A DNA stretch of 64,000 bases from a virus: the IMG/VR virus record IMGVR_UViG_3300014208_000028, positions 29,123 to 93,122 of that record. The stretch is one strand, 5' to 3'. How positions within the stretch are numbered: the stretch's first letter is position 1; each line of letters starts with the position of its first letter. The translations under genes and the position numbers were made by a program. The notes beneath the pieces were generated by a model. That model made no database searches and had not been told where the DNA came from. It saw nothing but the letters and a program-made list of their open reading frames with translations. Below, piece by piece: positions 18,096-63,693 of the stretch.

Positions 18096-18168
18096 AGCCT
18101 CTTGAGGCACTCGAAGCCCCGACATTCTGCTTACAGGGCAGACGCTCTTCCAACTGAGCTAAAGAGGC
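18096..18168 (-). tRNA. tRNA-Thr(UGU) with C33, CCA not encoded
   Basis: GCCTCTT/AAGAGGC acceptor, TCTGC-CCTGTAA-GCAGA, T-loop TTCGAGT. Confidence 0.88.
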
Positions 18169-18173
18169 GTATT

Positions 18174-18249
18174 TGGTGGGGGCAGAGGAGTACGATTCCC
18201 CGACATTTTGCGTGTAAAGCAAACGCTCTCCCAATTGAGCTATGCCCCC
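18174..18249 (-). tRNA. tRNA-Val(UAC), CCA encoded, atypical T-loop ATCGTAC
   Basis: GGGGGCA/TGCCCCC acceptor, TTTGC-TTTACAC-GCAAA, A73. Confidence 0.9.
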
Positions 18250-18259
18250 ATTACTTATA

Positions 18260-18472
18260 TTATAACATTAATTCTATAATAATTTCAGCTATCATTACCA
18301 GCCCGCCCAAAAAAACGGTGCCGATTAAAAATGATTTATTAGAGAATATGCTACCATTTTCTTCCTGTACCATAAAATTTATATTCAATACTTTCTGTAT
18401 AAATAGAAGTACTGATAATATCTCTATACAAAATATAGAACTTACACATAATGCTTTTAAAAATATAATCAG
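18260..18472 (-). CDS. putative two-TM membrane protein with non-canonical (CTG) start
   Basis: 71-codon open frame (IIFLKALCVSSIFCIEILSVLLFI...FLIGTVFLGGLVMIAEIIIELML); CTG overlaps upstream TGA; not in ORF track. Confidence 0.45.
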   Translation of the reverse strand: MIIFLKALCVSSIFCIEILSVLLFIQKVLNINFMVQEENGSIFSNKSFLIGTVFLGGLVMIAEIIIELML

Positions 18473-45644: not shown

Positions 45645-46361
45645 ATGCCTGATTTAAATGATAATATTTTAGTAGATAAAGGATTAGAATTGTGGAAGAT
45701 TTGGAAGAAAGCGCCCACAGATATTAATCTTAGAAATCTATTAGAATTCTATAATACTATAATTATGAAACGAGTAAGTATGTTTTCAGGGGCTAATATA
45801 CCTAAACCTACTATGATAATAGCTGCTAAAAAATTAGCTGTAGATGCATTCAATACTTATTCTCCTAATAGAGATACTAATCTTCAAACTCATATTTATA
45901 CTAATTTAAAACGTCTTTCTAGATTTGTCGGAGATCGTCAGAATATGGGTCATTTACCTGAAAATAGAAGATTAAAAATTCAACAATATACTAATATGAA
46001 AAATACTTTAAGTGAAAATTTAGGTAGAGAAGCTAGTAGTTTAGAAACTGCTGAAATGTTAAATTGGCCGGTTAGTGAAATAGAAAGAATGGAAAAAGAA
46101 TTAAGGCCCTCTATTATAGCCTCCACTTTTGAAAGTGATGTAGGAATAGCTACTCCTGGGCATACTAGAGAACATAGAATTATAAGAAATATATATTATG
46201 AGTTAAACCCTCAAGAACAGGTTGTCTATGAATATTTAATGGGAATGAATGGTAAACCTAAATTATCTGAAACTAAAATAGCTGATAAATTAAATACTAG
46301 TGTAACTAAAGTAAGTAGAATTAAAAAAGGTATAGTTAAAAAAATAGAGAAGTGGAAATAG
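45645..46361 (+). CDS. phage-encoded sigma70-family sigma factor
   Basis: Region 2 (AVDAFNTYSPNRDTNLQTHIY), region 3 (LGREASSLETAEML), region 4 HTH (LSETKIADKLNTSVTKVSRIKK). Confidence 0.88.
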   Translation: MPDLNDNILVDKGLELWKIWKKAPTDINLRNLLEFYNTIIMKRVSMFSGANIPKPTMIIAAKKLAVDAFNTYSPNRDTNLQTHIYTNLKRLSRFVGDRQNMGHLPENRRLKIQQYTNMKNTLSENLGREASSLETAEMLNWPVSEIERMEKELRPSIIASTFESDVGIATPGHTREHRIIRNIYYELNPQEQVVYEYLMGMNGKPKLSETKIADKLNTSVTKVSRIKKGIVKKIEKWK

Positions 46362-46364
46362 ATA

Positions 46365-46389
46365 AAAATGGGGAGATTTCTCTCCCCAT
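46365..46389. terminator. terminator hairpin between convergent genes
   Basis: ATGGGGAGA-TT-TCTCTCCCCAT palindrome. Confidence 0.7.
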
Positions 46390-46406
46390 CAGTTATTAGC
46401 AGAAAC

Positions 46407-47141
46407 TTATTTCTTGATGATTGAAACGAGAGAAGAGATGCTCGAAAGAATTCCTTCGAATCGTTTCATTTCTTCCTCCTTGAAACCTTCGATACCACTG
46501 ATGGTAATCACGATGGTCCTACCATCTTTCTCCTCCACAATCGGCGCTACAGGTTCAACAACAGGTTCAGCATACCGCTTTACGATAGCGGCCAAGGCGT
46601 TCCGTAATTTGGTATAGGTGCCTACTTGGAAAGTCTGTCCCTTTTTGACCCGCCCGAAGCAGCCGTAGAGGTAGGTTTCATTTACCTCTGCCTCTCTTGC
46701 CAAGAGAGTCATCAACCCCGCCTCTCCGTCTTTTCTGATTTTGGAATTAAGAGCATTACGAGCCTCTTTAATTTCTTCGACCAATGAAATCGCATTTTCC
46801 TTTTCAACACAATTACAGAAACTTCGATTCATCCTTCTTTTCCTCCATCCTTCTGTTTTCGACGCCAAAATTGCAGCATCGCATCGTCTCATGTTGAACG
46901 GAGCCGAAGAGAGTATTGAGATGATAGTCTCTTTATCTTTACCAGTAACATATTCCACCAGTTCAGAAAACTCCAAAACTTCATCCAATACTCCCTCAGC
47001 ACATTCCGGGCAAATCACCTTCCCGGAAATTTCAAACCACAATTCAGGCTCTAGGGCCTTATGAATTTGTCCGCAGCATCCGCAGTTCCAACTGCCGGTT
47101 ATCAGCCTAACTCTATCGCATCCCTCTAACTTCTTGTGCAT
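46407..47141 (-). CDS. Zn-finger protein, GC-elevated cassette gene
   Basis: CGCCG...CPECA; own promoter at 47169, AAGGAGG RBS. Confidence 0.7.
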   Translation of the reverse strand: MHKKLEGCDRVRLITGSWNCGCCGQIHKALEPELWFEISGKVICPECAEGVLDEVLEFSELVEYVTGKDKETIISILSSAPFNMRRCDAAILASKTEGWRKRRMNRSFCNCVEKENAISLVEEIKEARNALNSKIRKDGEAGLMTLLAREAEVNETYLYGCFGRVKKGQTFQVGTYTKLRNALAAIVKRYAEPVVEPVAPIVEEKDGRTIVITISGIEGFKEEEMKRFEGILSSISSLVSIIKK

Positions 47142-47199
47142 AAGATCCTCCTTATCCTTCTATAAATTTTATAACTAATTTTTAGAAGAATTTTCAGGA

Positions 47200-47670
47200 T
47201 TAACAGAAATATGCATCAACTCCAGCTTCAGCTAACATTTGCATAGAAAGCTCTATATCCTTTTTCCAATCCTCACTCCAAGTTTTTATACGCTCATTGT
47301 GAGTATTAATATTAACTACTACTTTAGTAATTCCAGATTGAATTATTCCTCTAGCACAATCGGTGCAAGGAAATATATTAGTATATAAAGTACAGTTTTT
47401 TATAGATACTCCTATTCTAGCACTATTATAAATAGCATTACGTTCTGCATGTTCATAATATTTATATTTTAATGGCCGCTCATTACGTACCGGAATATCG
47501 TCCTTCATACCTCTAGGTAGTCCATTAAATCCAGTACTTCTTATTTCATTATCTTCGCCAACTATAATAGCCCCTACTTTAGTACTAGGATCTTTACTTT
47601 TAGAAGCTATATAATTTACCATATTTAAGAAGTAATCTTTCCAAGTATTTTTGGGTATATCTATAATCAT
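47200..47670 (-). CDS. dCMP deaminase
   Basis: SKDPSTKVGA, TGFNG, HAERNAI, PCTDCARGIIQSGI. Confidence 0.93.
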   Translation of the reverse strand: MIIDIPKNTWKDYFLNMVNYIASKSKDPSTKVGAIIVGEDNEIRSTGFNGLPRGMKDDIPVRNERPLKYKYYEHAERNAIYNSARIGVSIKNCTLYTNIFPCTDCARGIIQSGITKVVVNINTHNERIKTWSEDWKKDIELSMQMLAEAGVDAYFC

Positions 47671-48251
47671 TTACTTACCATATAATCTATAATTTCTTCT
47701 TTAATAAATTCTATGTCTTTTCTACTAAAGTACTTAACAGGAATATCTGAATAGTGTTCAGGACAATTTTTGGCGGGAGCATAGATTAACTCATTTACAT
47801 ATAATTTCATTCTATTTTCTATATCTTTTATAGAAGAATTTTCATTATTAGGAATAAGTACGTCATGTCCATCACAAGTATAGAAATATATTTTAGTATT
47901 TTTAAACATTTCATTTCTATAATCCATAAATTCGGCCCGCAAAATATTTACCTTATCTAAACTTAAACGAGTAGACATATAAGCAAATACATCCAAAGGA
48001 GAACGATCACTTATAAAACTTCTATTTATCATAAAAGAATATTTAAAGTAATAATATAGCGCATATTCTAGAGCCTCAAAAGTAACTAAATCCATATTTT
48101 GATAATCTAATCCGTACCTAGTTAGAAAATCTCTAGCTTGCTCATCTATCTTTAAAATATCACTATTAACTATTCTTTCATCCTGAAATATCTCATCTAC
48201 TAATGTAGTCTTACCAACTGAATGCGCCCCAATTACTGCTACTCTTTTCAA
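47667..48251 (-). CDS. P-loop nucleotide kinase (AAA_28-like)
   Basis: GAHSVGKTT, ISDRS.LD..AY. Confidence 0.8.
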   Translation of the reverse strand: MKRVAVIGAHSVGKTTLVDEIFQDERIVNSDILKIDEQARDFLTRYGLDYQNMDLVTFEALEYALYYYFKYSFMINRSFISDRSPLDVFAYMSTRLSLDKVNILRAEFMDYRNEMFKNTKIYFYTCDGHDVLIPNNENSSIKDIENRMKLYVNELIYAPAKNCPEHYSDIPVKYFSRKDIEFIKEEIIDYMVSK

Positions 48252-48252
48252 T

Positions 48253-48718
48253 TTACTCTCCTTTATATTTATCTACTAGACTAGATAAATCTATCATACA
48301 TAATTCTTTTAAATGATATAAAAGCGGGCAAGAAATACTTTGCCCCGTAGTTTCTAGTCTATCGCAATTTTCTTTACTATCACACCACTCACATACATAA
48401 TCTACCGCATAATTTAAAATATAATTACCTATGCTATCTCCATCTTCTTCGATTTTAGGAACTACTTCTACTATTTTCATAATTACCTCAACATTCTATT
48501 TTTTCGCGGCCAGACATAAATTCTTTTAAAGTTTTTTCTAAAGTAGTATATAAAGTCTTCTGATTAATATCCCAAGTATTAGGATCATATTTACCTATTA
48601 AATTAAAATCAAATAAATCTACTTCTACTATAGGTACATAATCTTTATCTCTTAAATTCTTATAGAATAAATTACAAAAATCCATAACTTCTTTATTAGA
48701 TGTTTTATTAATCTCCAT
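48253..48718 (-). CDS. two hypothetical proteins (48253-48480, 48488-48718)
   Basis: ORF track. Confidence 0.6.
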
Positions 48719-48719
48719 T

Positions 48720-50540
48720 TAGTTTTCCTCCCCCGCCAAGGCAGGTGCTATATGATGTTTTGAGAATGCCCTTGGCCACGCAGACCTCAGTATCGGCGCA
48801 CGATTTGCCCAGGTTGCAGGGATCATGACACGGGTCTTCCACCGCGTCCGCGAGGGGGCAGCCGGGGTGGATGCCGGTGTAAGGATCACCATCCCAGTCT
48901 TTTGCAAATATCTGACTGCAATCATATATCTCCCCGTTGTGGTGATTGCATCCCTGTTGCGACTCCGAAAAATAGATGCAGTTACAGCACCTCTCAATCA
49001 CCCTCTCCGGTATGATCTTTTTCATCGTATTCTCCTTCCGCTGGTGTCGCCTGGTTTGAACACCGGCAGATGCAGTCGCACTTTAGCAACTATCTCCTCC
49101 TTCATTTCTGTGCCGCAATCATCATCCAAAGGATGAGGTCGGGGAGTAGTGTCTGTCTCTTTTCTCGCGTCCGGTATGATCTTTTTCATCAGTCCTCCTT
49201 CTTCCTTGACCCCTCGAAAAACGATTTACGGTCGATGCCGAGTTTCTTGTCTATGTACTCCAATTCGTTTCTAAGACCGATACTTCCACCGAACACGAAC
49301 ACCACCCCTATTACCTGCATCCAACCCGATTCCCAACACGCCAGACAGATGCCACTCGCAAGAATTACCAACCAATCAAAAGTATGCCTCATCCTTCCTC
49401 CTTCGCGGTCTTGCCTGATTTCTTCCCGGCAACAATTTTTCCTACCCGCTTTCCCAGCGCATCCAACCTCCAACGGGGCCATGTCTGGGGTTTATCGATA
49501 TCGAATTTTGGCTTGCTCATTTGTTTTCCTCCAATGCGGGCTTGCCGCACAGCGGGCAGAATTTCCAATCGTGGTTCCAGTGTTCGCTATTTGGGCCATG
49601 ATCGCGGTCGGGATAGTTGCGGAAAAATTCCTCGGTATAATTATTACGGCCATTCTCTGTGTAAAAGCACTTCTCCGCGCACTCATCCCCTGGCTTGCTC
49701 ATTTGCCCTCCCCGTGGCCGTCAGTGATGGTGATGGTGATGGGTTTAACTTCACTAGTGAGGCAACACCCAAAATAATCGTTGATATTTTTAGGTGGACA
49801 CACAGTACACCATACTCTCGGACTTCCATCATCATCAAAGTGACAAGCCCAAACTTTCTTGACTATCATCCCTTCTCCTCCTCGATGGTGAGGGTTACGG
49901 GGACAGAATCCATGCACATGTACTGCCGCATATAAACGGTAATCATGTCCACATCGCGCCCAACAAGCCCCTTGTGCACCCACCCCTTCACCTTCCTGCC
50001 GTTGTTCATGTCGAGGGCGGTATTGATGAGGTCTTTAGCCTGTTCGCGATCGGCTTCGAGTTCCTTGACGCGGGCGAGGGCGGCGTCCAGCTTGTACCCG
50101 AACAGGTCGAGTTCGTTCTGGGCGGCGTCACGCTCCTGCTCCATCGTTATGAGGGCAAGTTCGGCTTCGTGCGAACGATGCTTGAAGGTTTGACAATCAT
50201 CGAGGGATACCACCCGTTTCTTTTCCTCATCGTTAATCTTGGCGACTAGGTTTACCCTGTCAGCTTTCATCTCCTCCACCACGGCTTCGAGCTCCTTCAC
50301 GCGGGCGAGGGCAGCGTCAAGCTGCTTCTCGACAACCCCTTTAGCACCCGTAAACTCGACACACTCATCGTGCTTACCGGCTTCGGAACATTTGTCCCGC
50401 GCAATACAATTCGCTTTAGGCTGAAAGTGGCGGGCGCAACCCCTTACGATGTTGGGGCGATCAGCCGAGTCAGATAAGCTCAAATAGCAGTTCGCCTCCG
50501 CCCCGCAACTTGGCCACATCAACGCACATTTATTACAAGT
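48720..50540 (-). other. high-GC insert of about six small coupled genes (48708-49025, 49022-49189, 49189-~49386, 49517-49702, 49699-~49869, 49866-50552)
   Basis: Abrupt shift to roughly 50% GC (by eye) and G/C-ending codons; ATGA/TGATG coupling. Confidence 0.8.
49006..49190. repeat. 21-nt direct repeat TCCGGTATGATCTTTTTCATC (49006-49026 and 49170-49190): duplicated gene start MKKIIP
   Basis: Exact repeat read from sequence. Confidence 0.85.
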
Positions 50541-50542
50541 AC

Positions 50543-51070
50543 CTATACACATAATTTCTCCTTTAATTTATAGTACTCTACTATAAACATATTTTTAATT
50601 TCACTCATAGAATATTCTTTTATTTCTATATAAGGAACTTCAATATCTTTTTTATACCAATCTTTTCCTTTATCCGCCATTAATTGCTGAGCCTCATTTA
50701 CAAGTAATATATAGTCAGCATCATGAATAGCTTTTGAAAAGGGATAAATTATATTAGCCCAAGAACATAATTTAATTTGTAAATTTTCTTCTATCAGTTT
50801 ATAGTCCGGCAAATATCTTTTTAACGGTCTACTTACATCCCCTAAATATGCTTCCGTAGCATCGTGCAATAATCCAGTTAATTTTAAATCATTAGACATT
50901 AACTCACTTACTAATAATGAGTGCTGAGCTATACTATAAAATCTATTAGTATGGCCGACAAATCTACATTGATGAGAAAGCGCATGAGCAATATCTATAA
51001 TATTAAATTCAGGATCATCAAATTTGAATTTAATTCCAGTAAATGTCGATATATCCCAACTATCTTTCAT
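50543..51070 (-). CDS. YfbR-like HD 5'-deoxynucleotidase
   Basis: IAHALSHQCRFVGH..FYSIAQHS, LLHDATEAYLGDVSRPLK, AD. Confidence 0.88.
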   Translation of the reverse strand: MKDSWDISTFTGIKFKFDDPEFNIIDIAHALSHQCRFVGHTNRFYSIAQHSLLVSELMSNDLKLTGLLHDATEAYLGDVSRPLKRYLPDYKLIEENLQIKLCSWANIIYPFSKAIHDADYILLVNEAQQLMADKGKDWYKKDIEVPYIEIKEYSMSEIKNMFIVEYYKLKEKLCV

Positions 51071-51327
51071 ATATTCTCCGTGATTTTAGCAATATTGACT
51101 AAATCATCAAGTATTTCTCTATTTTTATATACATATCTACCTACTATTTTTCCTATTTTTACAGCCTCTCTATTAGAATTTATCTCTAAATTAAGATCCT
51201 TAATTATATCGTATTGCAGCATAATTATATTTCGTAAATAATTAACATCATTACCGCTTTTAATAAGAGATTCCTGCCACTCTCTAGGAAAACAAGAATC
51301 TATATACTCTTCCCATTTTAAATCCAT
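51067..51327 (-). CDS. hypothetical protein
   Basis: GGAGG RBS, ATGA overlap. Confidence 0.65.
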   Translation of the reverse strand: MDLKWEEYIDSCFPREWQESLIKSGNDVNYLRNIIMLQYDIIKDLNLEINSNREAVKIGKIVGRYVYKNREILDDLVNIAKITENI

Positions 51328-51330
51328 TAC

Positions 51331-51525
51331 CTATTCCTCCAAATACTTTTCTACAGCATTCTCATCCCAATCTACATCCCAAGTCATAGGATATATAATA
51401 ATGTTATCCTTACTATCTAATTCTCCATTATCATAATCCTTAACTATAATATCTATACCTGCCGTGCTAAAATTAGATACTATATTTTGTATATTTCCAC
51501 CCTCAACATGAATTACTATAGTTTT
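51331..51525 (-). pseudogene. 65-codon frame lacking a canonical start (KTIVIHVEGGNIQNIV...YLEE)
   Basis: Fills the gap exactly with typical codon usage; in frame with upstream TAA; A6 run at the junction. Confidence 0.5.
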
Positions 51526-52471
51526 TTATCTAACATATATATACTCATCTAAGATAGTTAATAACTTTTCAGAATACTCTAATCTCATCTTACAAGCCTC
51601 GTCATATGCTTCCTCTCCCCCATTAGGAAATTTTCGTAAAGCTTTTTTAGTAATAGCCCAATCCACAGCATCAGAAAAGTTTCTACTGAAAACTTTATCT
51701 CTACTTTTTTCCAAATCTTCTTTAGATATTGGAGAAGTAATACCTGCTCTAATTTGTTTCATAAATTCTTTAATCACTTTAATCTCCTCTTTGAATAATT
51801 ACATCTCCATAAGCACTTATAGTCGCCCCAAAATTTTTATCGTTTAATGGGTGAGCTATTTTATATAATTCTATAGCTCTATCTAAATAAACCTCTACTA
51901 TTTCTTTTTCGTATCCTGCATCACTAAAACAAATTGCTCTTCTAGAAGCTTTATTATAATCAGTAATAGAATTAGCGGTTACTTGAGATATTCTAATCTT
52001 CTTTTCTAAAGTCTCGTTTATATGCTTTTTAAAACCAGTAACTCTTTCATGATCGTGATCATCGGGCCGATTTTGAAACTTACCACTACCATATACAAAT
52101 TTAATTTTCTGTATCATAGTTCTATCAGTATATATAGTCCCATGTAAATTAAAGTTATTAGGAATAACTTCCTTAATAGGCTCAGTCTTTATTTTAGATA
52201 ATTTATAAGTCTCTTCTTCATTTAAACCTTTAAATCTATTTTCTAATTTTCTAATTTTTGGTAATTCAAAATTACCTTTCCACTCTAATAATTCCTCACA
52301 GTTATTGCAATAATAAATATGCTCATTACTTATATTACTATTACTATCTTCCATATCTATAGGTAATGGAATATCATCTTTTTCAAAATTCGCGGCCAGA
52401 TAAGTATATTTGTAATTACCGATATATTTAATTACTTTTTTTACTTCCCCGCAAATAGGGCATATAAACAT
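51526..52471 (-). CDS. two hypothetical proteins (51526-51777; 51779-52471 with Zn ribbon CPICG...CNNC)
   Basis: ORF track. Confidence 0.65.
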
Positions 52472-52540
52472 GTATAACTCCTTTCAAAAAATGACCTCCG
52501 TAAAAAAAGACTTTCTACGAAGGTTATATAACATAAAAAT

Positions 52541-52719
52541 AAAAAAATTAACCCCTGAGATTTTATCGTCTAAGTGTAATCCTAAAATCTCTTATTCCTG
52601 CTGGCGACAAGGACAAAAATCCATGCGCCGACACGAACATAATGGAATATTTTATAGAGCCTTTATACTGTAGCTTAGAGCAGTAAAGGTTATACAGAAG
52701 AGGGGTTAGTCCTTCCGTA
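52541..52719 (-). ncRNA. putative ~180-nt four-stem RNA with two long-range pseudoknots
   Basis: TGTTATAAT promoter at 52723-52731; four stems; UAACCCCU/AGGGGUUA and UCUAAG/CUUAGA complementarities; ends in U7. Confidence 0.6.
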
Positions 52720-52818
52720 ATAATTATAACATATTATTTTAATTTTTAACGGCGCAAATAGATATAAAAAATTGTTATATAATACTTGAATCAAATCTAT
52801 TTTAGAAAGGACTTTATA

Positions 52819-53247
52819 ATGTGTAATCCTAGTCTTCCTCCCGAGTTGGAAAAAGATTATTTTCCTGAAACAAGAGTTTTACGTATTTTAAAATTAGAGT
52901 ATACTGCTCTAGTTTACATGAGAAATAAAAAAGTATTGCCTCAGATTGTACAAAAAACATTTACAAGCGGTACTACTGGAGGTACAGTAACTGCTTGGTT
53001 TTATAAAAAAGACCGAGAACGGGACTTGCTAATAACTATTATCAAAGAAAGATTAAGTGGATTTTATAATAACCCTTTCGATTATTCAAATATTTTCAAT
53101 AATAAGCATCTTGACGTACAGCAGCAAAAAGAACTTATAGGATTATTTGCAATAGCAGATTATGAAAATCGAAAAACATACAGAGAGAATTGGGGGGACG
53201 GGAAATTAGGAGATAGAAAACATAATGCCTTTTACACATATATGTAA
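52819..53247 (+). CDS. hypothetical cassette gene
   Basis: ATG after GAAAGGA; promoter CGCAAAT...TGTTATAT; conserved terminator. Confidence 0.7.
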   Translation: MCNPSLPPELEKDYFPETRVLRILKLEYTALVYMRNKKVLPQIVQKTFTSGTTGGTVTAWFYKKDRERDLLITIIKERLSGFYNNPFDYSNIFNNKHLDVQQQKELIGLFAIADYENRKTYRENWGDGKLGDRKHNAFYTYM

Positions 53248-53263
53248 AAAGCATTTAAAGAGG

Positions 53264-53288
53264 AAAAGAGGACTGCCTACTCTTTTTT
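53264..53288 (+). terminator. repeated terminator, copy 3 (loop GACTGCCTA)
   Basis: AAAAGAG-GACTGCCTA-CTCTTTTTT. Confidence 0.8.
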
Positions 53289-53290
53289 AA

Positions 53291-54946
53291 TTATTTATTA
53301 GATTTATCTGAGGGTTTAGTTTCCATAGTTATACCATTCCTACCAGATAAGAAATTTTTAACTTTGGATATTCCTATCTTTCTAGAAGAATTTTTAGCTG
53401 GAGTAATTATAGGAGTATGGTTAGTAGTCCTTAATTGTTTTAAGAATTGTTTAAATTCATCGTTTTGTTTAGCTTTTCTAGAACTTATACTATCGACAAA
53501 CTCTTCCACACTTTTTTTGCGTTTCGTCAAATGCCATCTATTAAGAAAAGTCTCAGGTAAAGTACTTATATATTTCTTAACTACGACTTTTCTATCTTCT
53601 GGTTTACGATTAGATTGTCCTTTTAACCGAACGCCCCTTGCCACAGCCTGATTTTCTGCCTCGGGGTTATAAGTATTTGATAGTAAGGATATGTGTGTAG
53701 TATTTGGAAGGTCAATTCCTTCCTTTCCACTAGAACTTACTAATAATACTTTACTTTTACCTACATTATATTCTTTAACTGCCTTATTCCTATCATTACC
53801 TTTAAATTCTTTGTTTCCCTTTCCAACAAACAGCCCGTGTTTAATATTTTTAGATTTAAGACTTTCAGAAAGTGTTTTCAACCCGCCATTTATGAAATCC
53901 GAGTATACCATAATCTTAGCATCTGGGGTTTCTTTTAAAGTTTTTTGTATGTCTTCTATAACAGCTTTTATTTTAGGAGAATCTTCTATAGTCTTTTCTA
54001 TAGGTTCTTTATTTCCCCATACATCGGTACTAACAGAGGCTTGTCTAGCTCTAAGTAATCTAGTAAATATATGTTTCATTTCTTTAGCAGAAGAGGGAGG
54101 AAGGCCTTGTTCTACTCTCTTTCTATCAGACCTAGATAAGTCCCCCATAGCAAAATCATATAACTGCTTTTCGCGGCCAGCTAAAGGTATTTTAATAGTC
54201 TCTTCTATTTTTTTAGGATAATCTTTTTCTAATTCTTCTTGCCCATAATAGAATACGCTTTTACCAAAAATTTCTTTTAAAGAACGCATATTCTTAAGCC
54301 TAGTCTCTTGTACAGGATGGCCATGTTCGTCTTTAACAGTTACATTCTGCATAAACCGCCTTTTAAAATCTGCCGGGTCTTTAATAGAAAAATTACTCCC
54401 TAATATAGAATGTAACATTGGAACTACTTCAGACGGCGTATTCGAAGAAACACTTCCGGCGAGTCCAATAACATTTCTAACTTTATTAGAAGAGTTCATC
54501 AAAGCATCAGCTAACTTACTATCAAAGTTTTTAGCCCTAGCCATTTCATCTACAATTAAACTATCTATAGGACCTTTAGCCGTCATTAAATACTTATCAG
54601 GATTTAATCTAAATAATTCTTGGCTGACAACATGATAGTTTAATGTTCCATCTCTAGAACTTTGCACAGCATTCATTTTATGAGAACCTTGGATATCGTG
54701 AATACTCACATTATCAGAGAATTTCTTAATGCCGCTATTTATAAAATTATCTTTAAGCGCAGCCGGTACAATGACTAACACATTCTTAGCTTTACCCTGT
54801 TGAGCCAATGACTCAATTCCGGCAATACTAGTGACTGTCTTCCCACTACCTGTAGCCATTGCCAACAAAATTCTTCCATTATTGGAATGTAAATTTTGTA
54901 AGGCTTCTTCCTGATGCGGCTCTAATTTAACATCTTTTTTTAACAT
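53291..54946 (-). CDS. SNF2-family SF2 helicase/ATPase
   Basis: MATGSGKT, IVDEMARAKN, SGKEGIDL, QAVARGVRLKGQ. Confidence 0.88.
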   Translation of the reverse strand: MLKKDVKLEPHQEEALQNLHSNNGRILLAMATGSGKTVTSIAGIESLAQQGKAKNVLVIVPAALKDNFINSGIKKFSDNVSIHDIQGSHKMNAVQSSRDGTLNYHVVSQELFRLNPDKYLMTAKGPIDSLIVDEMARAKNFDSKLADALMNSSNKVRNVIGLAGSVSSNTPSEVVPMLHSILGSNFSIKDPADFKRRFMQNVTVKDEHGHPVQETRLKNMRSLKEIFGKSVFYYGQEELEKDYPKKIEETIKIPLAGREKQLYDFAMGDLSRSDRKRVEQGLPPSSAKEMKHIFTRLLRARQASVSTDVWGNKEPIEKTIEDSPKIKAVIEDIQKTLKETPDAKIMVYSDFINGGLKTLSESLKSKNIKHGLFVGKGNKEFKGNDRNKAVKEYNVGKSKVLLVSSSGKEGIDLPNTTHISLLSNTYNPEAENQAVARGVRLKGQSNRKPEDRKVVVKKYISTLPETFLNRWHLTKRKKSVEEFVDSISSRKAKQNDEFKQFLKQLRTTNHTPIITPAKNSSRKIGISKVKNFLSGRNGITMETKPSDKSNK

Positions 54947-54964
54947 ATAATTATTATACCCTAT

Positions 54965-56134
54965 TTAACTATTCTTTTTCCACATACTAAATGCATTTTT
55001 ATTAGTTAATATTTTCCCATAAGTAGCTGCATTTTTATACCTATCTATCATTTTCTGCTCTACATCTTCGCCCACGTTTTTCCTAATATCATCTCCAACT
55101 GCTTCTGAATATTTCCCACCTTTACCGTAAGTATCAAATTTAAAAAACTTTCTAACCTGATCTCTAGTAGCCATTATTCTAGGAGTATTATTTAATCCTA
55201 AATTATCATATAAATCTTGTATTTCTTGAGTAACAAATGGGGTATAGAAAGAAGCTATACTATGTAGTTCCGCATCTTCAGCTTTAGTACGTATCATACT
55301 TACTTCTACATCAGTAGTATAATTACCGGAGGCTATATCTATAGTATGTCTTACTCCTTCTACATATCCGTAGATAATCTCATTCTCCCCGCCATCATAA
55401 GTATCTTCTATCTCAATTGGAAAACCAGGCATTATATTAGGATTAAATGGCATATGTAATTGCCCGCGCCGTTGAGAGTATCTCCTTATTTGAAACTCAT
55501 AACGTACTATAGATTTCATTAAACTAAATACTTCATTTAATAATTCTGTCTCTGCTTGTTCTTTAGATACTGCCGCAACATCTGAATCATTTGCTACAAC
55601 AGTATTGGCAGTATCTGTCTTTATAGTCTTATCATTTTTAAGTCTATTAGCAGAAAGATCTAAAAATCTTATAGTGACTATTTGAGGGTAACTAGCAACT
55701 ACTTCTTTTCCATTAGATAAGGTAGTTTTAATACTTATATACTCATCAGTAGCTATAGTAGATATAACTAAAGGCATTATTGTTTTTATATTAGTAGTAG
55801 ATACTTCTGAAGAAATTAGATACTGATTATCCTCTAATCCATATATATTATTACAGTCTTTCCAATAAGACTGTATTAATTGTTTATAAATATCTAATTT
55901 CTCTGGAGTAATAGTATATGAAGTACTTTTATTTATTTTTTCTAAGGTATCTCTAAGCGCCGAATTAGATACTAAAGGCCCTATAGTAGAGCCTATAGTA
56001 GCAGTACTAGCATCCCCAGCCCCCTGCATAATACTTATAAATAAATTATAATAAGCTCCATAATTAGATGCTGAGGCATTAGCAACTATAAATGCAGACC
56101 TTAAATCCGCTAATATTTCTCTTATAGTAATCAT
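54965..56134 (-). CDS. baseplate hub C-terminal-like protein
   Basis: FNPNIMPGFPIEI...YGYVEGVRHTIDI...YTTDVEVS resembles a gp27/VgrG-type hub end. Confidence 0.55.
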   Translation of the reverse strand: MITIREILADLRSAFIVANASASNYGAYYNLFISIMQGAGDASTATIGSTIGPLVSNSALRDTLEKINKSTSYTITPEKLDIYKQLIQSYWKDCNNIYGLEDNQYLISSEVSTTNIKTIMPLVISTIATDEYISIKTTLSNGKEVVASYPQIVTIRFLDLSANRLKNDKTIKTDTANTVVANDSDVAAVSKEQAETELLNEVFSLMKSIVRYEFQIRRYSQRRGQLHMPFNPNIMPGFPIEIEDTYDGGENEIIYGYVEGVRHTIDIASGNYTTDVEVSMIRTKAEDAELHSIASFYTPFVTQEIQDLYDNLGLNNTPRIMATRDQVRKFFKFDTYGKGGKYSEAVGDDIRKNVGEDVEQKMIDRYKNAATYGKILTNKNAFSMWKKNS

Positions 56135-61183: not shown

Positions 61184-63693
61184 TATCGTCCTCCAGCAGC
61201 TTGTCCATCTTGATCTGTCCTAGCCTCTTTAATTACACTTTCAGTAACCCCACTAAAATAAACTGCTGTAGGGGCCGATATATTGACAGTACCACTTTTA
61301 AAGTTAACTGCTTCTCCACTAGCTCCTAAAGACATACCTTCAGTAGTTTGAGAACGCAATAAATCCCAAGCCCCAGCAACATCATTACCTTGTACACCAG
61401 ACATACTTTGCCATAATAAAGAGTTCGCTATTTTAGCATCCTTACCTAATTTACTTCTTTGAACATCAGACATTTTCTTATATTCTTGATATAAACCTTT
61501 AAATGAGTCTAAGTCTCCAGTAGATTCCCAATTTTGTAATAAATTACTGCTAAATCCTCTACCTCTTAAAGCTCCAGAATCGGGGCTTCTATATCTACGA
61601 CTTTCTACTATATTTTTAGCTTCTCTTTTAGCAACATATTCGCTTAATCCAGCTTTTCCACTAGCACTAGTAAGTCTGCCCATTATCTCACTAACTTCTT
61701 CAGTACTTTTACCGGAGGCTAATAAATATCCTTTTAATTTTTCTTGGCTCTTATCCTCACCAGCAGAATAACTAGATAATAAATTAAGTAATTTTTCTTG
61801 ACCGCCTCTTTCTATATCACTACTTATATCTCCACCTAAATTAGCTACTGCCCACTTTTTCATTTCTGCACTTAAACTTTCAGCACTTCCCCCTCTAATG
61901 CCCCTAGCTAATTGGCTGGCTCTACGTCTAGCAGATTCATTTATCTTTACCTTACTTCCATAATTATATGCTACTCCTTCTTCACCAGATAAAGTCTCCC
62001 ACATACGCTCACCCCAAGCTCTAACTTTGGGCAGTCTATCGCTACGTAAGCTTACAGCCTCTGATAATCTATCCATACTTTGTCCATAACCTCTACCAGC
62101 CTCTGCACCTTGTACATAAGAAGCTCTCATTCTACTGAAAAATCCACTATCTTCTTTAACATTCTCATTCCAATATCCACCATATCCAAAAGGATTAAAT
62201 ACGTTTACTATACCTAAAGCCTTTTGCCAACCGCTTCGTTCAGGCCCTTCTATAGAAGTAGATCCAGCATATTGGCTTCTAATATTAGCCCTTATAGCTT
62301 CTTTACTTCCTTGAGTCATAAGATTTCTAACAGTATTAGAATCCATACCAGTCTTCATAGCTATAATTTCTGGTGTTACAGCCATACCAGCATCTTTCAA
62401 TGCTTTAGCCATTTGATTTACTATTTGTACTCCAGCGTAATCTCCCATCTTACCTTGTAACTGTGATTTAGAATTAGCGTCTAATAATCTAGCTATCTGT
62501 GCTGGATCTGCACTCATTCTACTAGATATAGCCGCCAAACTTCCACCACCGCCCATTTGTTGAGCAAGCATCATTGTACCAAATGCAGTATTCTGTAAAG
62601 TATTAGTAGTTTGTTGAACAGCTAATAAAGAAGCCTGTTCTACTCCACCCATCATTCTTATTCTATCTGATGCCGCTCCTCCGCGAGAATACGCATATCC
62701 TAAACTTCCAACTAAAGAAGTTGCTTGTCCTGCTCCCCATTTTCCACCAGCTAATTGAGCGCCAGTACCAGATATTCTCATAACATCTGCTACTCCCATT
62801 CCGCTTAAATTAGCCGCGCCAACCATAGAGGTCATTTGATTCATCTGCCCTTTTAAATCATAATAACCCATATTTTTTAATTCAGTTAATAATTGCATTC
62901 CTTCTTGAGCAGTTACTTTTAATATCTTACTTATACGTTTAGTAGCGTCATAATACTGTTTAGTAGTTTTGCCGAATTCTTCGAAATTTCTAGTATTATC
63001 GAACATTCCACCAGCTATGCCAGCACTAGTAACGTCCATAAATTCCGACATACCGACATTCTCACCCGCAGCGTATCTACTTTTTAAACTAACGCGAGTC
63101 TCTTTAGCAAAATTATTTAATTGACTAAATCCAGCATGAAATCTATTTAAACTAGGATTTCTACGCATCTCCATTTCCATCTGTCGCGCCATTTTATAAT
63201 CTTGAGAAGGACCTTTAAAAGGCATTCCAGCAACTTCAGATATGCCCCATCCAGCAGCCATAACTCCTAACGCAGCAGGATTTACTATTCCTACACCAGG
63301 CATCATCCACGCCGCATTTTCAAATACTCCTGAGCCTAATTCTGGAAGAGAAGCGAAAGCTCCAACTGCCATATCGCCCATACGTTCTCTCATATACCGT
63401 CTACCCGCTCGACTAGATTCTGCTCCAGTATAGCCAGGACCTGCGGGCATCCCCATCATTCCTCGTATAGCCGATCCTGTAGTCTGATAAAAAGGCTGAA
63501 CCATACTAGGAGGCATCATCATACCGTTCATAGCCATTGGCGGGGGAGGAGGAGCATAAGAAGAAATAGCAGGAGGAGGAGGTCCACCAGTCTCTCTACT
63601 TCTCATACCCTGATTATAGGCCGCATTCTGCATAAAGAATGCTTGATCTGCTCCTATAACTCCTTGTATATAATTTGAATCGTAAGGCGGCAT
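61183..63693 (-). CDS. tape measure protein (probable)
   Basis: 836 aa, Gly/Ala/Met-rich helical, upstream of hub genes. Confidence 0.7.
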   Translation of the reverse strand: MPPYDSNYIQGVIGADQAFFMQNAAYNQGMRSRETGGPPPPAISSYAPPPPPMAMNGMMMPPSMVQPFYQTTGSAIRGMMGMPAGPGYTGAESSRAGRRYMRERMGDMAVGAFASLPELGSGVFENAAWMMPGVGIVNPAALGVMAAGWGISEVAGMPFKGPSQDYKMARQMEMEMRRNPSLNRFHAGFSQLNNFAKETRVSLKSRYAAGENVGMSEFMDVTSAGIAGGMFDNTRNFEEFGKTTKQYYDATKRISKILKVTAQEGMQLLTELKNMGYYDLKGQMNQMTSMVGAANLSGMGVADVMRISGTGAQLAGGKWGAGQATSLVGSLGYAYSRGGAASDRIRMMGGVEQASLLAVQQTTNTLQNTAFGTMMLAQQMGGGGSLAAISSRMSADPAQIARLLDANSKSQLQGKMGDYAGVQIVNQMAKALKDAGMAVTPEIIAMKTGMDSNTVRNLMTQGSKEAIRANIRSQYAGSTSIEGPERSGWQKALGIVNVFNPFGYGGYWNENVKEDSGFFSRMRASYVQGAEAGRGYGQSMDRLSEAVSLRSDRLPKVRAWGERMWETLSGEEGVAYNYGSKVKINESARRRASQLARGIRGGSAESLSAEMKKWAVANLGGDISSDIERGGQEKLLNLLSSYSAGEDKSQEKLKGYLLASGKSTEEVSEIMGRLTSASGKAGLSEYVAKREAKNIVESRRYRSPDSGALRGRGFSSNLLQNWESTGDLDSFKGLYQEYKKMSDVQRSKLGKDAKIANSLLWQSMSGVQGNDVAGAWDLLRSQTTEGMSLGASGEAVNFKSGTVNISAPTAVYFSGVTESVIKEARTDQDGQAAGGR

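What the first reader, a model, noticed from the sequence alone, without database searches (positions are those of the whole stretch)
52541..52731. Candidate novel ~180-nt structured RNA with two long-range pseudoknots
The largest ORF-free gap on the minus strand starts right after a TGTTATAAT promoter and ends in U7. Manual fold (minus strand): P1 UACGGAAG/CUUCUGUA (52712-19/52693-700, G.U supports this strand); P2 CCUUUA-CUG/CAG-UAAAGG; P3 AUUCC..GGCG..GGA/UCC..CGCC..GGAAU; P4 GAGAUUUUA/UAAAAUCUC. The P1 loop UAACCCCU (52701-08) is perfectly complementary to the 3' tail AGGGGUUA (52549-56), and the P2 loop UCUAAG (52674-79) to the P4 loop CUUAGA (52569-74). Two independent loop pairings suggest a compact tertiary fold, or intermolecular hand-in-hand multimers as in phi29 pRNA. 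I recognise no known family.
Basis: partly seen in the sequence, partly recalled or inferred. Interest (0 to 1): 0.85.

Follow-up and report, generated by a model that had tools for sequence, protein, structure and literature searches.

The report
Orphan structured small RNA in jumbo phage
A 200-kb uncultured phage carries a roughly 176-base stretch that has no gene, sits behind its own promoter and probably makes a folded small RNA, but no relative could be found, so the two "pseudoknots" and any function are unproven.

Summary
The stretch lies in a 347-nt gene-free gap between divergent promoters, inside a ~7-kb accessory island of a 199,871-bp AT-rich jumbo phage.

Evidence for an RNA gene:
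- The TGTTATAAT motif is a real promoter type in this genome; one copy drives a tRNA cluster.
- GC is 38%, against 17-27% in the flanking spacers.
- Fold z is -3.6, with 0 of 200 shuffles as good.
- The minus strand folds 10.9 kcal/mol better than the mirror structure on plus.
- No gene was called there and there is no Rfam match.

Limits:
- About 2.5% of local 180-nt windows, some of them coding, fold as well.
- "Pseudoknot 1" is simply the nested closing stem of a four-way junction (pair probability 0.95-0.98).
- P1 uses bases upstream of the likely start site.
- The loop-loop pairing occurs in 1-5% of shuffles.
- Only 100% identical copies exist, so covariation cannot be tested.

New lead: the exposed P4 loop is complementary over 11 nt to the start-codon region of the divergent 142-aa gene, which ranks 1 of 299 genes.

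Verdict: a plausible orphan phage small RNA. The pRNA-like reading is unsupported.

The parts
52723..52731 (-). Extended -10 promoter TGTTATAAT (P1) of the candidate RNA. The expected start site is about G52716.
   Evidence: Sequence. The genome holds 15 copies of the 9-mer, 13 of them on the gene-bearing strand and about 9 in non-coding DNA. One copy drives a tRNA cluster.
52541..52716 (-). Predicted small RNA of about 176 nt, folding as a four-way junction with paired termini.
   Evidence: MFE -51.0 kcal/mol, z -3.6. GC is 38% against 17-27% in flanking spacers. No gene was called here on two independent assemblies. No Rfam, tRNA or tmRNA match.
52701..52708 (-).
   Evidence: Pairs with 52549-52556. 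Pair probability 0.95-0.98. I12.
52549..52556 (-). 3' strand of the closing stem (AGGGGUUA). One base later comes U7, which is terminator-like geometry.
   Evidence: The duplex is worth -11.3 kcal/mol.
52660..52689 (-). P2 hairpin. Its loop contains (U)CUAAG.
   Evidence: Pair probability 0.86.
52593..52647 (-). P3, a long irregular GC-rich hairpin (GGCG/CGCC, GGA/UCC). Its base can pair in two ways: AUUCC/GGAAU or UGUUC/GAAUA.
52557..52591 (-). P4 hairpin, with a 9-bp stem and a 17-nt open loop.
   Evidence: Pair probability 0.98. I9.
52574..52584 (-). P4-loop segment UAGGAUUACAC, the candidate antisense seed.
   Evidence: Opening cost is 0.6 kcal/mol. It is complementary over 11 nt to 52821-52831 of the plus-strand mRNA.
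52541..52547 (-). U7 run, the proposed 3' end. It can also pair with the 5' GGAAGGA.
   Evidence: Sequence. Pair probability 0.84-0.88. The simple terminator scan did not call it, because the 'loop' is 140 nt long.
52821..52831 (+). Candidate target site GUGUAAUCCUA, covering +3 to +13 of the 142-aa gene (G of the AUG through codon 5).
   Evidence: This gene ranks 1 of 299 gene starts in an accessibility-aware interaction scan, at -8.67 kcal/mol.
52819..53247 (+). Divergent orphan gene of 142 aa. It has its own TGTTATATAAT promoter (52773-52783), an RBS, and a terminator at 53224-53255 that also follows the convergent helicase gene.
   Evidence: It has no relatives. There are weak leads to MerR/DUF4004 or antirepressor-N folds.
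52494..52533 (-). A second promoter-like TGTTATATA (52533-52525), followed by a 14-bp hairpin (52524-52494), U6 (52491-52486), the RBS and the ATG at 52471 of the 230-aa orphan gene.
   Evidence: A similar layout (-10, then an ACCTTYGTA hairpin, a U-run and an RBS) sits after another ncRNA unit at genome 13124.

Best explanation
This is a stand-alone, phage-encoded small RNA of about 176 nt.

- Start: it is transcribed from the extended -10 promoter at 52731-52723, starting near G52716.
- Fold: it forms a four-way junction. An 8-bp GC-rich closing stem (52708-01 with 52556-49) encloses three hairpins, P2, P3 and P4.
- End: the closing stem sits one base before U7, so it would act as the RNA's own intrinsic terminator and as a clamp on its ends. 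The downstream 230-aa gene then uses its own weak promoter.
- Most likely action: the open 17-nt P4 loop base-pairs with the start-codon region (+3 to +13) of the divergently transcribed 142-aa gene and lowers its translation. This would be a divergent sRNA/neighbour-gene regulatory pair inside an accessory island.

Shown in silico: the promoter type, the lack of coding, the GC enrichment, the stability of the fold, the strand preference, and the loop-to-start-site complementarity with its rank.

Inferred, not shown: transcription itself, the 5' and 3' ends, termination at U7, and any regulation.

My estimates: about 0.55 that a discrete structured RNA is made here, and about 0.2 that it acts on the 142-aa gene.
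For: - Promoter: TGTTATAAT is enriched in non-coding DNA and co-oriented with genes, and one copy precedes a tRNA cluster.
- No coding: no gene was called in the 347-nt gap on two other assemblies, and the small ORFs have no Pfam signal.
- Composition: GC is 38% against 17-27% in the adjacent spacers of a 32.5% GC genome.
- Fold: z is -3.57 and -3.63, with 0 of 200 shuffles as good. Closing stem, P2 and P4 have pair probabilities of 0.86-0.98 whichever ends are assumed.
- Strand: the mirrored structure on the plus strand is 10.9 kcal/mol weaker.
- Layout: the same promoter / ncRNA / terminator / second promoter / gene arrangement occurs at genome 13360/13124.
- Target: the P4 loop is complementary over 11 nt to 52821-52831. 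Only 3 of 299 gene starts have an 11-nt match. That neighbour ranks 1 of 299 once accessibility is included. In three other ncRNA units used as controls, neighbouring genes rank 10 to 294.
Against:
- No homologue exists, so there is no covariation.
- About 2.5% of local windows, including coding ones, fold as well.
- U7 after a stem that encloses a 140-nt branched 'loop' is not a canonical terminator and was not called by the scan. T7 runs are common in this AT-rich genome.
- A canonical hairpin plus U6 follows 25 nt later, so the RNA could be ~230 nt long or a leader.
- The predicted interaction energy (-8.7 kcal/mol) is no better than the best chance hits of the control RNAs, which reach -6.8 to -10.4. 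Only its location is unusual, and I noticed it after the fact.
- The second promoter has TATATA as its -10 hexamer and lacks the final T.
Confidence: 0.4

Rival explanations
1. It is a cis-acting 5' leader of the 230-aa gene and its operon. Transcription from P1 runs through the structured domain and meets two successive terminators: the closing stem plus U7, then the 14-bp hairpin plus U6. Expression of the accessory genes would depend on conditional read-through by a protein, a ligand or a phage antiterminator. The folded domain would be a sensor or a put/EAR-like antitermination element.
For: The structured region lies directly between a strong promoter and the gene's RBS. A canonical terminator-like hairpin sits 13 nt before the RBS. 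The second 'promoter' is imperfect. The RNA segment UGUAUAAC is complementary to GUUAUACA at -7 to +1 of the 230-aa gene (I11).
Against: No riboswitch, T-box or leader family matched, even at E up to 10. An orphan riboswitch with no relatives in any collection is unlikely. The 5' segment UACGGAAGG pairs with the hairpin's 5' arm only with a bulge, less well than the hairpin's own 3' arm does, so I saw no clear antiterminator. The 8-nt match to the 230-aa gene start is ordinary: 49 of 299 genes have a longest match of 8 nt, and that gene ranks 230 of 299. A parallel unit at genome 13360/13124 has a full TGTTATAAT promoter between its RNA and its gene.
Confidence: 0.2
3. There is no functional RNA. 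The stretch is spacer or regulatory DNA between divergent promoters, for example operator sites for the 142-aa putative DNA-binding protein, or a decayed gene remnant, and the fold is chance.
For: Windows inside coding genes reach similar z-scores. Each tertiary pairing is only marginally significant. There are no relatives anywhere. Inverted repeats are expected around divergently regulated promoters.
Against: GC is about 11-21 points above the adjacent spacers. 179 nt is far more than operators need, and it lies downstream of the promoter rather than between the two -10 elements. There is a strand asymmetry of 10.9 kcal/mol. No protein similarity was found for the ORFs in it. There is no GC-skew inflection that would suggest an origin. 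The stretch is kept 100% identical in independent samples, but so is all the flanking DNA I aligned, so that says little.
Confidence: 0.25

Closest known systems
Divergently encoded, non-overlapping antisense sRNAs that block a neighbour's translation start (E. coli IstR-1/tisB, OhsC/shoB, OrzO/zorO), and sRNA genes divergent from a regulator gene (OxyS/oxyR, SgrS/sgrR). From established knowledge.
   Same: The RNA and the neighbouring gene have back-to-back promoters and do not overlap. A short complementary stretch (here 11 nt) in an accessible sRNA loop covers the neighbour's start codon region.
   Different: The neighbour is a 142-aa hydrophilic orphan, not a small hydrophobic toxin. The complementarity is shorter than the ~18-21 nt of the E. 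coli pairs. The RNA is a large four-way junction rather than a short sRNA. Nothing has been tested experimentally.
phi29 packaging RNA (pRNA, Rfam RF00044)
   Same: Similar size (~174 nt), paired 5'/3' ends, a multi-helix junction and two loops with mutual complementarity.
   Different: No model match. pRNA is confined to small phi29-like podoviruses with terminal protein and lies at the genome end, whereas this is an internal accessory island of a 200-kb phage. The loop complementarity here can form within one molecule and is only marginally above chance.
Uncharacterised phage small RNAs found by transcript mapping, such as those of Pseudomonas phage phiKZ (PMC8244752), those mapped by ONT-cappable-seq (PMC10914365), and T4 species 1/2 (band C/D) RNAs (from memory)
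   Same: Promoter-driven, terminator-bounded non-coding units of 100-250 nt in large lytic phage genomes, with no known family or function. This phage has at least four more such units.
   Different: Those were detected as transcripts. This one is only predicted. I tested no sequence or structural relation to them beyond the negative GenBank-phage DNA search and Rfam.
Processive antitermination RNAs (HK022 putL/putR, Bacillus EAR). From established knowledge.
   Same: A structured RNA just downstream of a strong promoter and upstream of terminators, at the head of a long co-directional gene block.
   Different: put is two ~35-nt stem-loops and EAR has its own Rfam model. Neither matched. The architecture here is a closed four-way junction that itself looks like a terminator.

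Membership tests
Any Rfam 15 family (riboswitches, ribozymes, 6S, tmRNA, Y RNA, pRNA, T-box, leaders, known sRNAs) | Covariance-model score at or near the family's gathering threshold | tested here: not met
   At gathering thresholds the whole window yields only 4 tRNAs. For 52300-53000 at E up to 10, the best hits score 8.6-19.4 bits against thresholds of 48-150. The rest of the genome yields only tRNAs.
phi29 pRNA | Match to RF00044 | tested here: not met
   No RF00044 hit.
phi29 pRNA | Small phi29-like genome with the pRNA gene at the genome end | tested here: not met
   The genome is 199,871 bp and the locus is internal, at about 81.7 kb.
phi29 pRNA | Intermolecular loop-loop pairing that forms rings on the connector | not testable with these tools
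   The loop complementarity exists (UCUAAG/CUUAGA), but whether it forms within or between molecules cannot be decided in silico. It occurs in 1.3-5% of shuffles.
Bacterial Y RNA / YrlA | A Ro60/Rsr (TROVE) protein partner encoded nearby or in the genome, and a match to a Y RNA model | tested here: not met
   No PF05731 match in the phage genome, while the control genomes gave hits. No Y RNA hit in Rfam.
tRNA / tmRNA / tRNA-like | Cloverleaf recognised by ARAGORN or RF00005 | tested here: not met
   ARAGORN finds no gene in 52300-53000. No RF00005 hit there.
Type I toxin-antitoxin with a divergent antitoxin sRNA (tisB/istR-like) | sRNA complementary to the translation start or standby region of the neighbouring mRNA | tested here: met
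   11-nt perfect match at +3 to +13. Rank 1 of 299.
Type I toxin-antitoxin with a divergent antitoxin sRNA (tisB/istR-like) | The toxin is a small (under ~60 aa) hydrophobic membrane peptide | tested here: not met
   The neighbour is 142 aa and hydrophilic, with no obvious hydrophobic segment in its translated sequence (read by eye). It matches no PADLOC or Pfam family.
Type III toxin-antitoxin (ToxIN-like) | Tandem direct repeats of the antitoxin RNA before a terminator and the toxin gene | tested here: not met
   No tandem repeats, only scattered 9-11-nt two-copy repeats. The 230-aa protein matches no PADLOC model.
Conserved structured RNA family (generic criterion) | Homologues with compensatory base changes in the proposed helices | tested here: inconclusive
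   Only 100% identical copies were found. A single-sequence CM found nothing in the phage's own genome, in 73 loci around related helicase genes, in 50 whole related phage records, or among pattern-scan hits from the viral, metagenome and prokaryote collections.

The most novel reading that the evidence does not exclude
The RNA is the first seen member of a new class of self-terminating four-way-junction RNAs. Its closing stem doubles as the intrinsic terminator. A tRNA-elbow-like kiss between the first and third arms gives a compact scaffold that acts as a protein decoy or assembly cofactor rather than as an antisense RNA. It would be one of a set of at least five orphan promoter-driven RNAs that this groundwater jumbo phage deploys early in infection.
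Probability: 0.08. Interest if true: 0.6.

Novelty: new member of a known kind. Interest (0 to 1): 0.3.

Why it matters
Large uncultured phages appear to carry many promoter-driven non-coding units, and almost none has a known role. If this one is real, it would be a compact example of a phage RNA whose closing stem also serves as its terminator. It may also switch off the gene next to it, inside a variable accessory island. That would give a small, testable regulatory pair: the RNA loop and the start codon of the neighbouring gene. As it stands, it is a single-sequence prediction in an uncultured phage with unknown host. Its value is as a lead, not a result.

Tried and rejected
1. DNA and protein similarity to GenBank phages: none for the region or the 230-aa protein. 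The helicase has only distant hits.
2. Relatives of the flanking orphan proteins: none for the 230-aa or 142-aa proteins.
3. Closest relative: a phage whose helicase is 49% identical (L002). It has no gap longer than 130 nt within 10 kb of the helicase on either side. Its opposite-strand gene matches window 45645-46361, so the RNA lies in a ~7-kb insertion.
4. Single-sequence covariance model R1: it finds only itself in the phage genome. It finds nothing in 73 loci near related helicases or in 50 whole related jumbo-phage records.
5. Pattern scans for the closing helix or the P3 core in the viral, metagenome and prokaryote collections: only chance hits. For example, the L095 hit lies antisense inside a 306-aa ORF.
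6. nhmmer and blastn against all fetched loci: nothing.
8. Long-range antiterminator idea: the 5' UACGGAAGG pairs with the downstream hairpin's 5' arm only with a bulged G, less well than the hairpin's own 3' arm does. I dropped the idea.
9. Leader peptide idea: a 16-codon uORF starts at 52534, but the only SD-like run (AGGGG) is 17 nt upstream. I dropped the idea.
10. Replication origin: the cumulative GC skew is monotonic with no inflection here.
11. Ro60/Y RNA: no TROVE gene.
12. Structure of the 142-aa protein: pLDDT 45, unusable. The ESM Atlas gives only weak leads to MerR/DUF4004 and antirepressor-N folds. The Atlas search for the 230-aa protein was uninformative.
13. Nested co-folding and plain duplexfold for target ranking: unsuitable, because they cannot model a hairpin loop pairing with another molecule and they allow huge interior loops. 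I replaced them with an accessibility-aware gapless scan.

Full report
**Context.**
The window is G000:C1:29123-93122 of a 199,871-bp IMG/VR virus record. The genome has 32.5% GC and nearly all genes are on the minus strand.

Reading along the minus strand around the finding:
- An SNF2-type helicase gene (53291-54946).
- A terminator-like hairpin (53224-53255) that also overlaps the end of the convergent plus-strand gene.
- A plus-strand 142-aa orphan gene (52819-53247), with its own TGTTATATAAT promoter and RBS.
- A 347-nt gap (52472-52818).
- A 230-aa orphan gene (51779-52471).

Gene callers on two other assemblies of the same phage also left the gap empty.

Compared with the nearest relative (helicase 49% identical, a 205-kb JGI contig, L002), the block from about 46362 to 53290 is an insertion. 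L002's opposite-strand gene next to the helicase matches window 45645-46361 at 51% identity. L002 has no intergenic gap above about 130 nt within 10 kb of the helicase on either side. The candidate therefore heads a ~7-kb accessory island, which explains why its neighbours are orphans.

**Observation.**
- Fold energy: the 191-nt stretch folds at -51.1 kcal/mol, z -3.57, with no shuffle of 200 as good. The 176-nt version from the likely start site gives z -3.63.
- Strand: the plus strand folds nearly as well in its own MFE (z -3.49). However, the minus-strand structure mirrored onto plus loses 10.9 kcal/mol because of nine G.U pairs, which favours minus.
- Local background: 161 windows of 180 nt on the minus strand between 64000 and 49421 give mean z -0.21 and sd 1.18. 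Four windows fall below -4, two of them inside coding genes. The window covering P3, P4 and the next hairpin ranks second. The fold is in the top 2-3% locally, not unique.
- Composition: 52541-52719 has 38% GC. The spacers on either side have 27.5% and 17%. This is the usual signature of structured RNA genes in AT-rich genomes.

**Promoter.**
TGTTATAAT occurs 15 times in the genome, 13 of them on the gene-bearing strand. About nine copies lie in non-coding DNA, although only 8-19% of the genome is non-coding. One copy sits directly before a tRNA cluster, and others sit before RBS-ATG starts. It is a credible promoter type. By the usual sigma-70 spacing, the start site is G52716, seven bases after TATAAT.

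**Structure.**
In the thermodynamic ensemble:
- P4 has probability 0.98 and P2 has 0.86.
- P3 is a long irregular GC-rich hairpin with two alternative bases.
- The 5' GGAAGGA pairs with the 3' U7 (probability 0.84-0.88).
- P1 has probability ~0. Three of its eight pairs use 52717-52719, which lie upstream of the expected start. Forcing P1 costs 4.5 kcal/mol in a nested model.

The first "pseudoknot" is therefore unnecessary.

Shuffle tests:
- A hairpin whose loop finds an 8-nt Watson-Crick partner elsewhere arises in 5.7% of dinucleotide shuffles.
- Loop-loop complementarity of at least 5 nt arises in 5% of shuffles, and of at least 6 nt in 1.3%.

The P2/P4 kiss remains a reasonable idea, since first-arm to third-arm contact resembles the tRNA elbow. 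It is not established.

**3' end.**
The closing stem ends one base before U7, which is terminator geometry. But the stem encloses 140 nt of branched RNA, so the simple scan did not call it. About 25 nt further on come, in order:
- a weaker promoter-like TGTTATATA;
- a canonical 14-bp hairpin plus U6;
- the RBS of the 230-aa gene.

A parallel unit at genome 13360/13124 has the same order: promoter, ~200-nt ncRNA, hairpin terminator, full TGTTATAAT, an ACCTTYGTA hairpin, a U-run and an RBS. This favours a stand-alone RNA followed by a separate gene promoter. A ~230-nt RNA or a leader cannot be excluded.

**Known families.**
- Rfam 15 gives nothing at gathering thresholds and only noise at E up to 10.
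- ARAGORN finds nothing.
- The phage has no TROVE/Ro60 gene.
- There are no tandem repeats of the type III antitoxin kind.
- The small ORFs in the stretch have no Pfam signal.
- The cumulative GC skew shows no origin-like inflection.

**Homologues.**
- Two other assemblies (Logan SRR18595301 and JGI 3300037810) carry the gap at 100% identity.
- Nothing was found in GenBank phages.
- The flanking proteins have no relatives in 5.8 or 1.8 billion proteins.
- A covariance model built from the single sequence found only itself in the phage genome. It found nothing in 73 loci near related helicases or in 50 whole related jumbo-phage records.
- Pattern scans for the closing helix or the P3 core across the viral, metagenome and prokaryote collections gave only chance-level CM scores. 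One hit lay antisense inside an ORF.

Covariation cannot be tested at present.

**New lead on function.**
- The P4 loop segment UAGGAUUACAC (52584-52574) is the exact complement of 52821-52831. That site runs from the G of the AUG into codon 5 of the divergent 142-aa gene (D1).
- Only 3 of 299 gene starts have an 11-nt match to the RNA, and the other two are A/T runs.
- I ran a gapless interaction scan that adds the opening energies of both partners. The neighbour ranks 1 of 299 at -8.67 kcal/mol, with a loop opening cost of 0.6.
- A second, imperfect match (10 of 11) links the P2 3' arm to positions -7 to +4 of the same mRNA (D2).
- As controls, three other ncRNA units of this phage show neighbour ranks of 10 to 294. 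Their best chance hits reach -6.8 to -10.4 kcal/mol. The energy is therefore ordinary, and only the position is unusual: roughly 2 chances in 299, noticed after the fact.
- The 142-aa protein is an orphan with weak ESM Atlas leads to MerR/DUF4004 and antirepressor-N folds. The AlphaFold model was unusable.

**Verdict.**
The most likely reading is a stand-alone phage small RNA that folds as a closed four-way junction. It may act as an antisense regulator of its divergent neighbour. I give about 0.55 that the RNA exists as a discrete species and about 0.2 for that mechanism.

It is a new, so far single-member example of a known kind: orphan phage sRNAs of the sort seen by transcript mapping in phiKZ and other phages (PMC8244752, PMC10914365, found). 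Interest is modest until a transcript or homologues are found.

Noticed in passing
L087:13140-13345 (-); L091:19750-19909 (-); L093:10928-11115 (+): Three more units with an extended -10 promoter, about 160-210 nt and no ORF. The first two (z -2.3 and -2.2) end in a hairpin followed by a U-run; the third shows no fold signal (z +0.2). None matches Rfam or model R1. The phage seems to carry a set of unrelated orphan ncRNAs.
   Followed up: partly
L088:5210-5355 (-): A TGTTATAAT promoter is followed by a cloverleaf with a 7-bp acceptor stem, a CUUAAAA anticodon-like loop (UAA, Leu), a long variable arm and a GGAGG/CCUCU T-arm (z -4.85). Rfam tRNA did not call it at the gathering threshold. It may be an atypical tRNA-Leu.
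   Followed up: partly
L087:1-190 and L094:7640-7971: Both ends of the 199,871-bp record consist of tandem 15-nt units (GCGCCACGGAGGTTC / GCGCCACAGAGGTCC variants). This is a terminal repeat array that IMG/VR scores as 'linear, no end repeats'.
   Followed up: no
window 46362-53290: This ~7-kb block is an insertion relative to the closest relative, L002. L002's opposite-strand gene beside the helicase is homologous (51%) to window 45645-46361 (+). The block holds the candidate RNA, several orphan genes, a dNMP-phosphatase-like gene (50543-51070) and the high-GC segment noted by another reader.
   Followed up: partly
L085:5172-5769 versus window 49866-50552: A copy of the phage that is identical across the intergenic gap I aligned (JGI 3300037810) has different gene calls just downstream: a 144-aa gene plus a 24-aa gene on the opposite strand, in place of the 228-aa gene and the 56-aa gene after it. 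This suggests strain-level variation inside the accessory island.
   Followed up: no
window 52494-52533 and L087:13068-13124: Both sites share the same layout: a -10 element immediately followed by an ACCTTYGTA...AAAG hairpin, a U-run and an RBS. The ACCTTYGTA core occurs three times in the genome, the third copy in a region without the promoter layout. It may be an operator or a 5'-UTR element common to two early genes.
   Followed up: partly
window 55811-55990 (-) and 62741-62920 (-): Windows inside coding genes have fold z-scores of -4.9 and -4.1 (40 shuffles each), as strong as the candidate RNA. They may be internal structured elements or simply the tail of the background distribution.
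   Followed up: no
window 18259-18267 (-): A TGTTATAAT promoter lies directly upstream of the tRNA genes at 18096-18249. This was useful as a positive control for this promoter type.
   Followed up: yes
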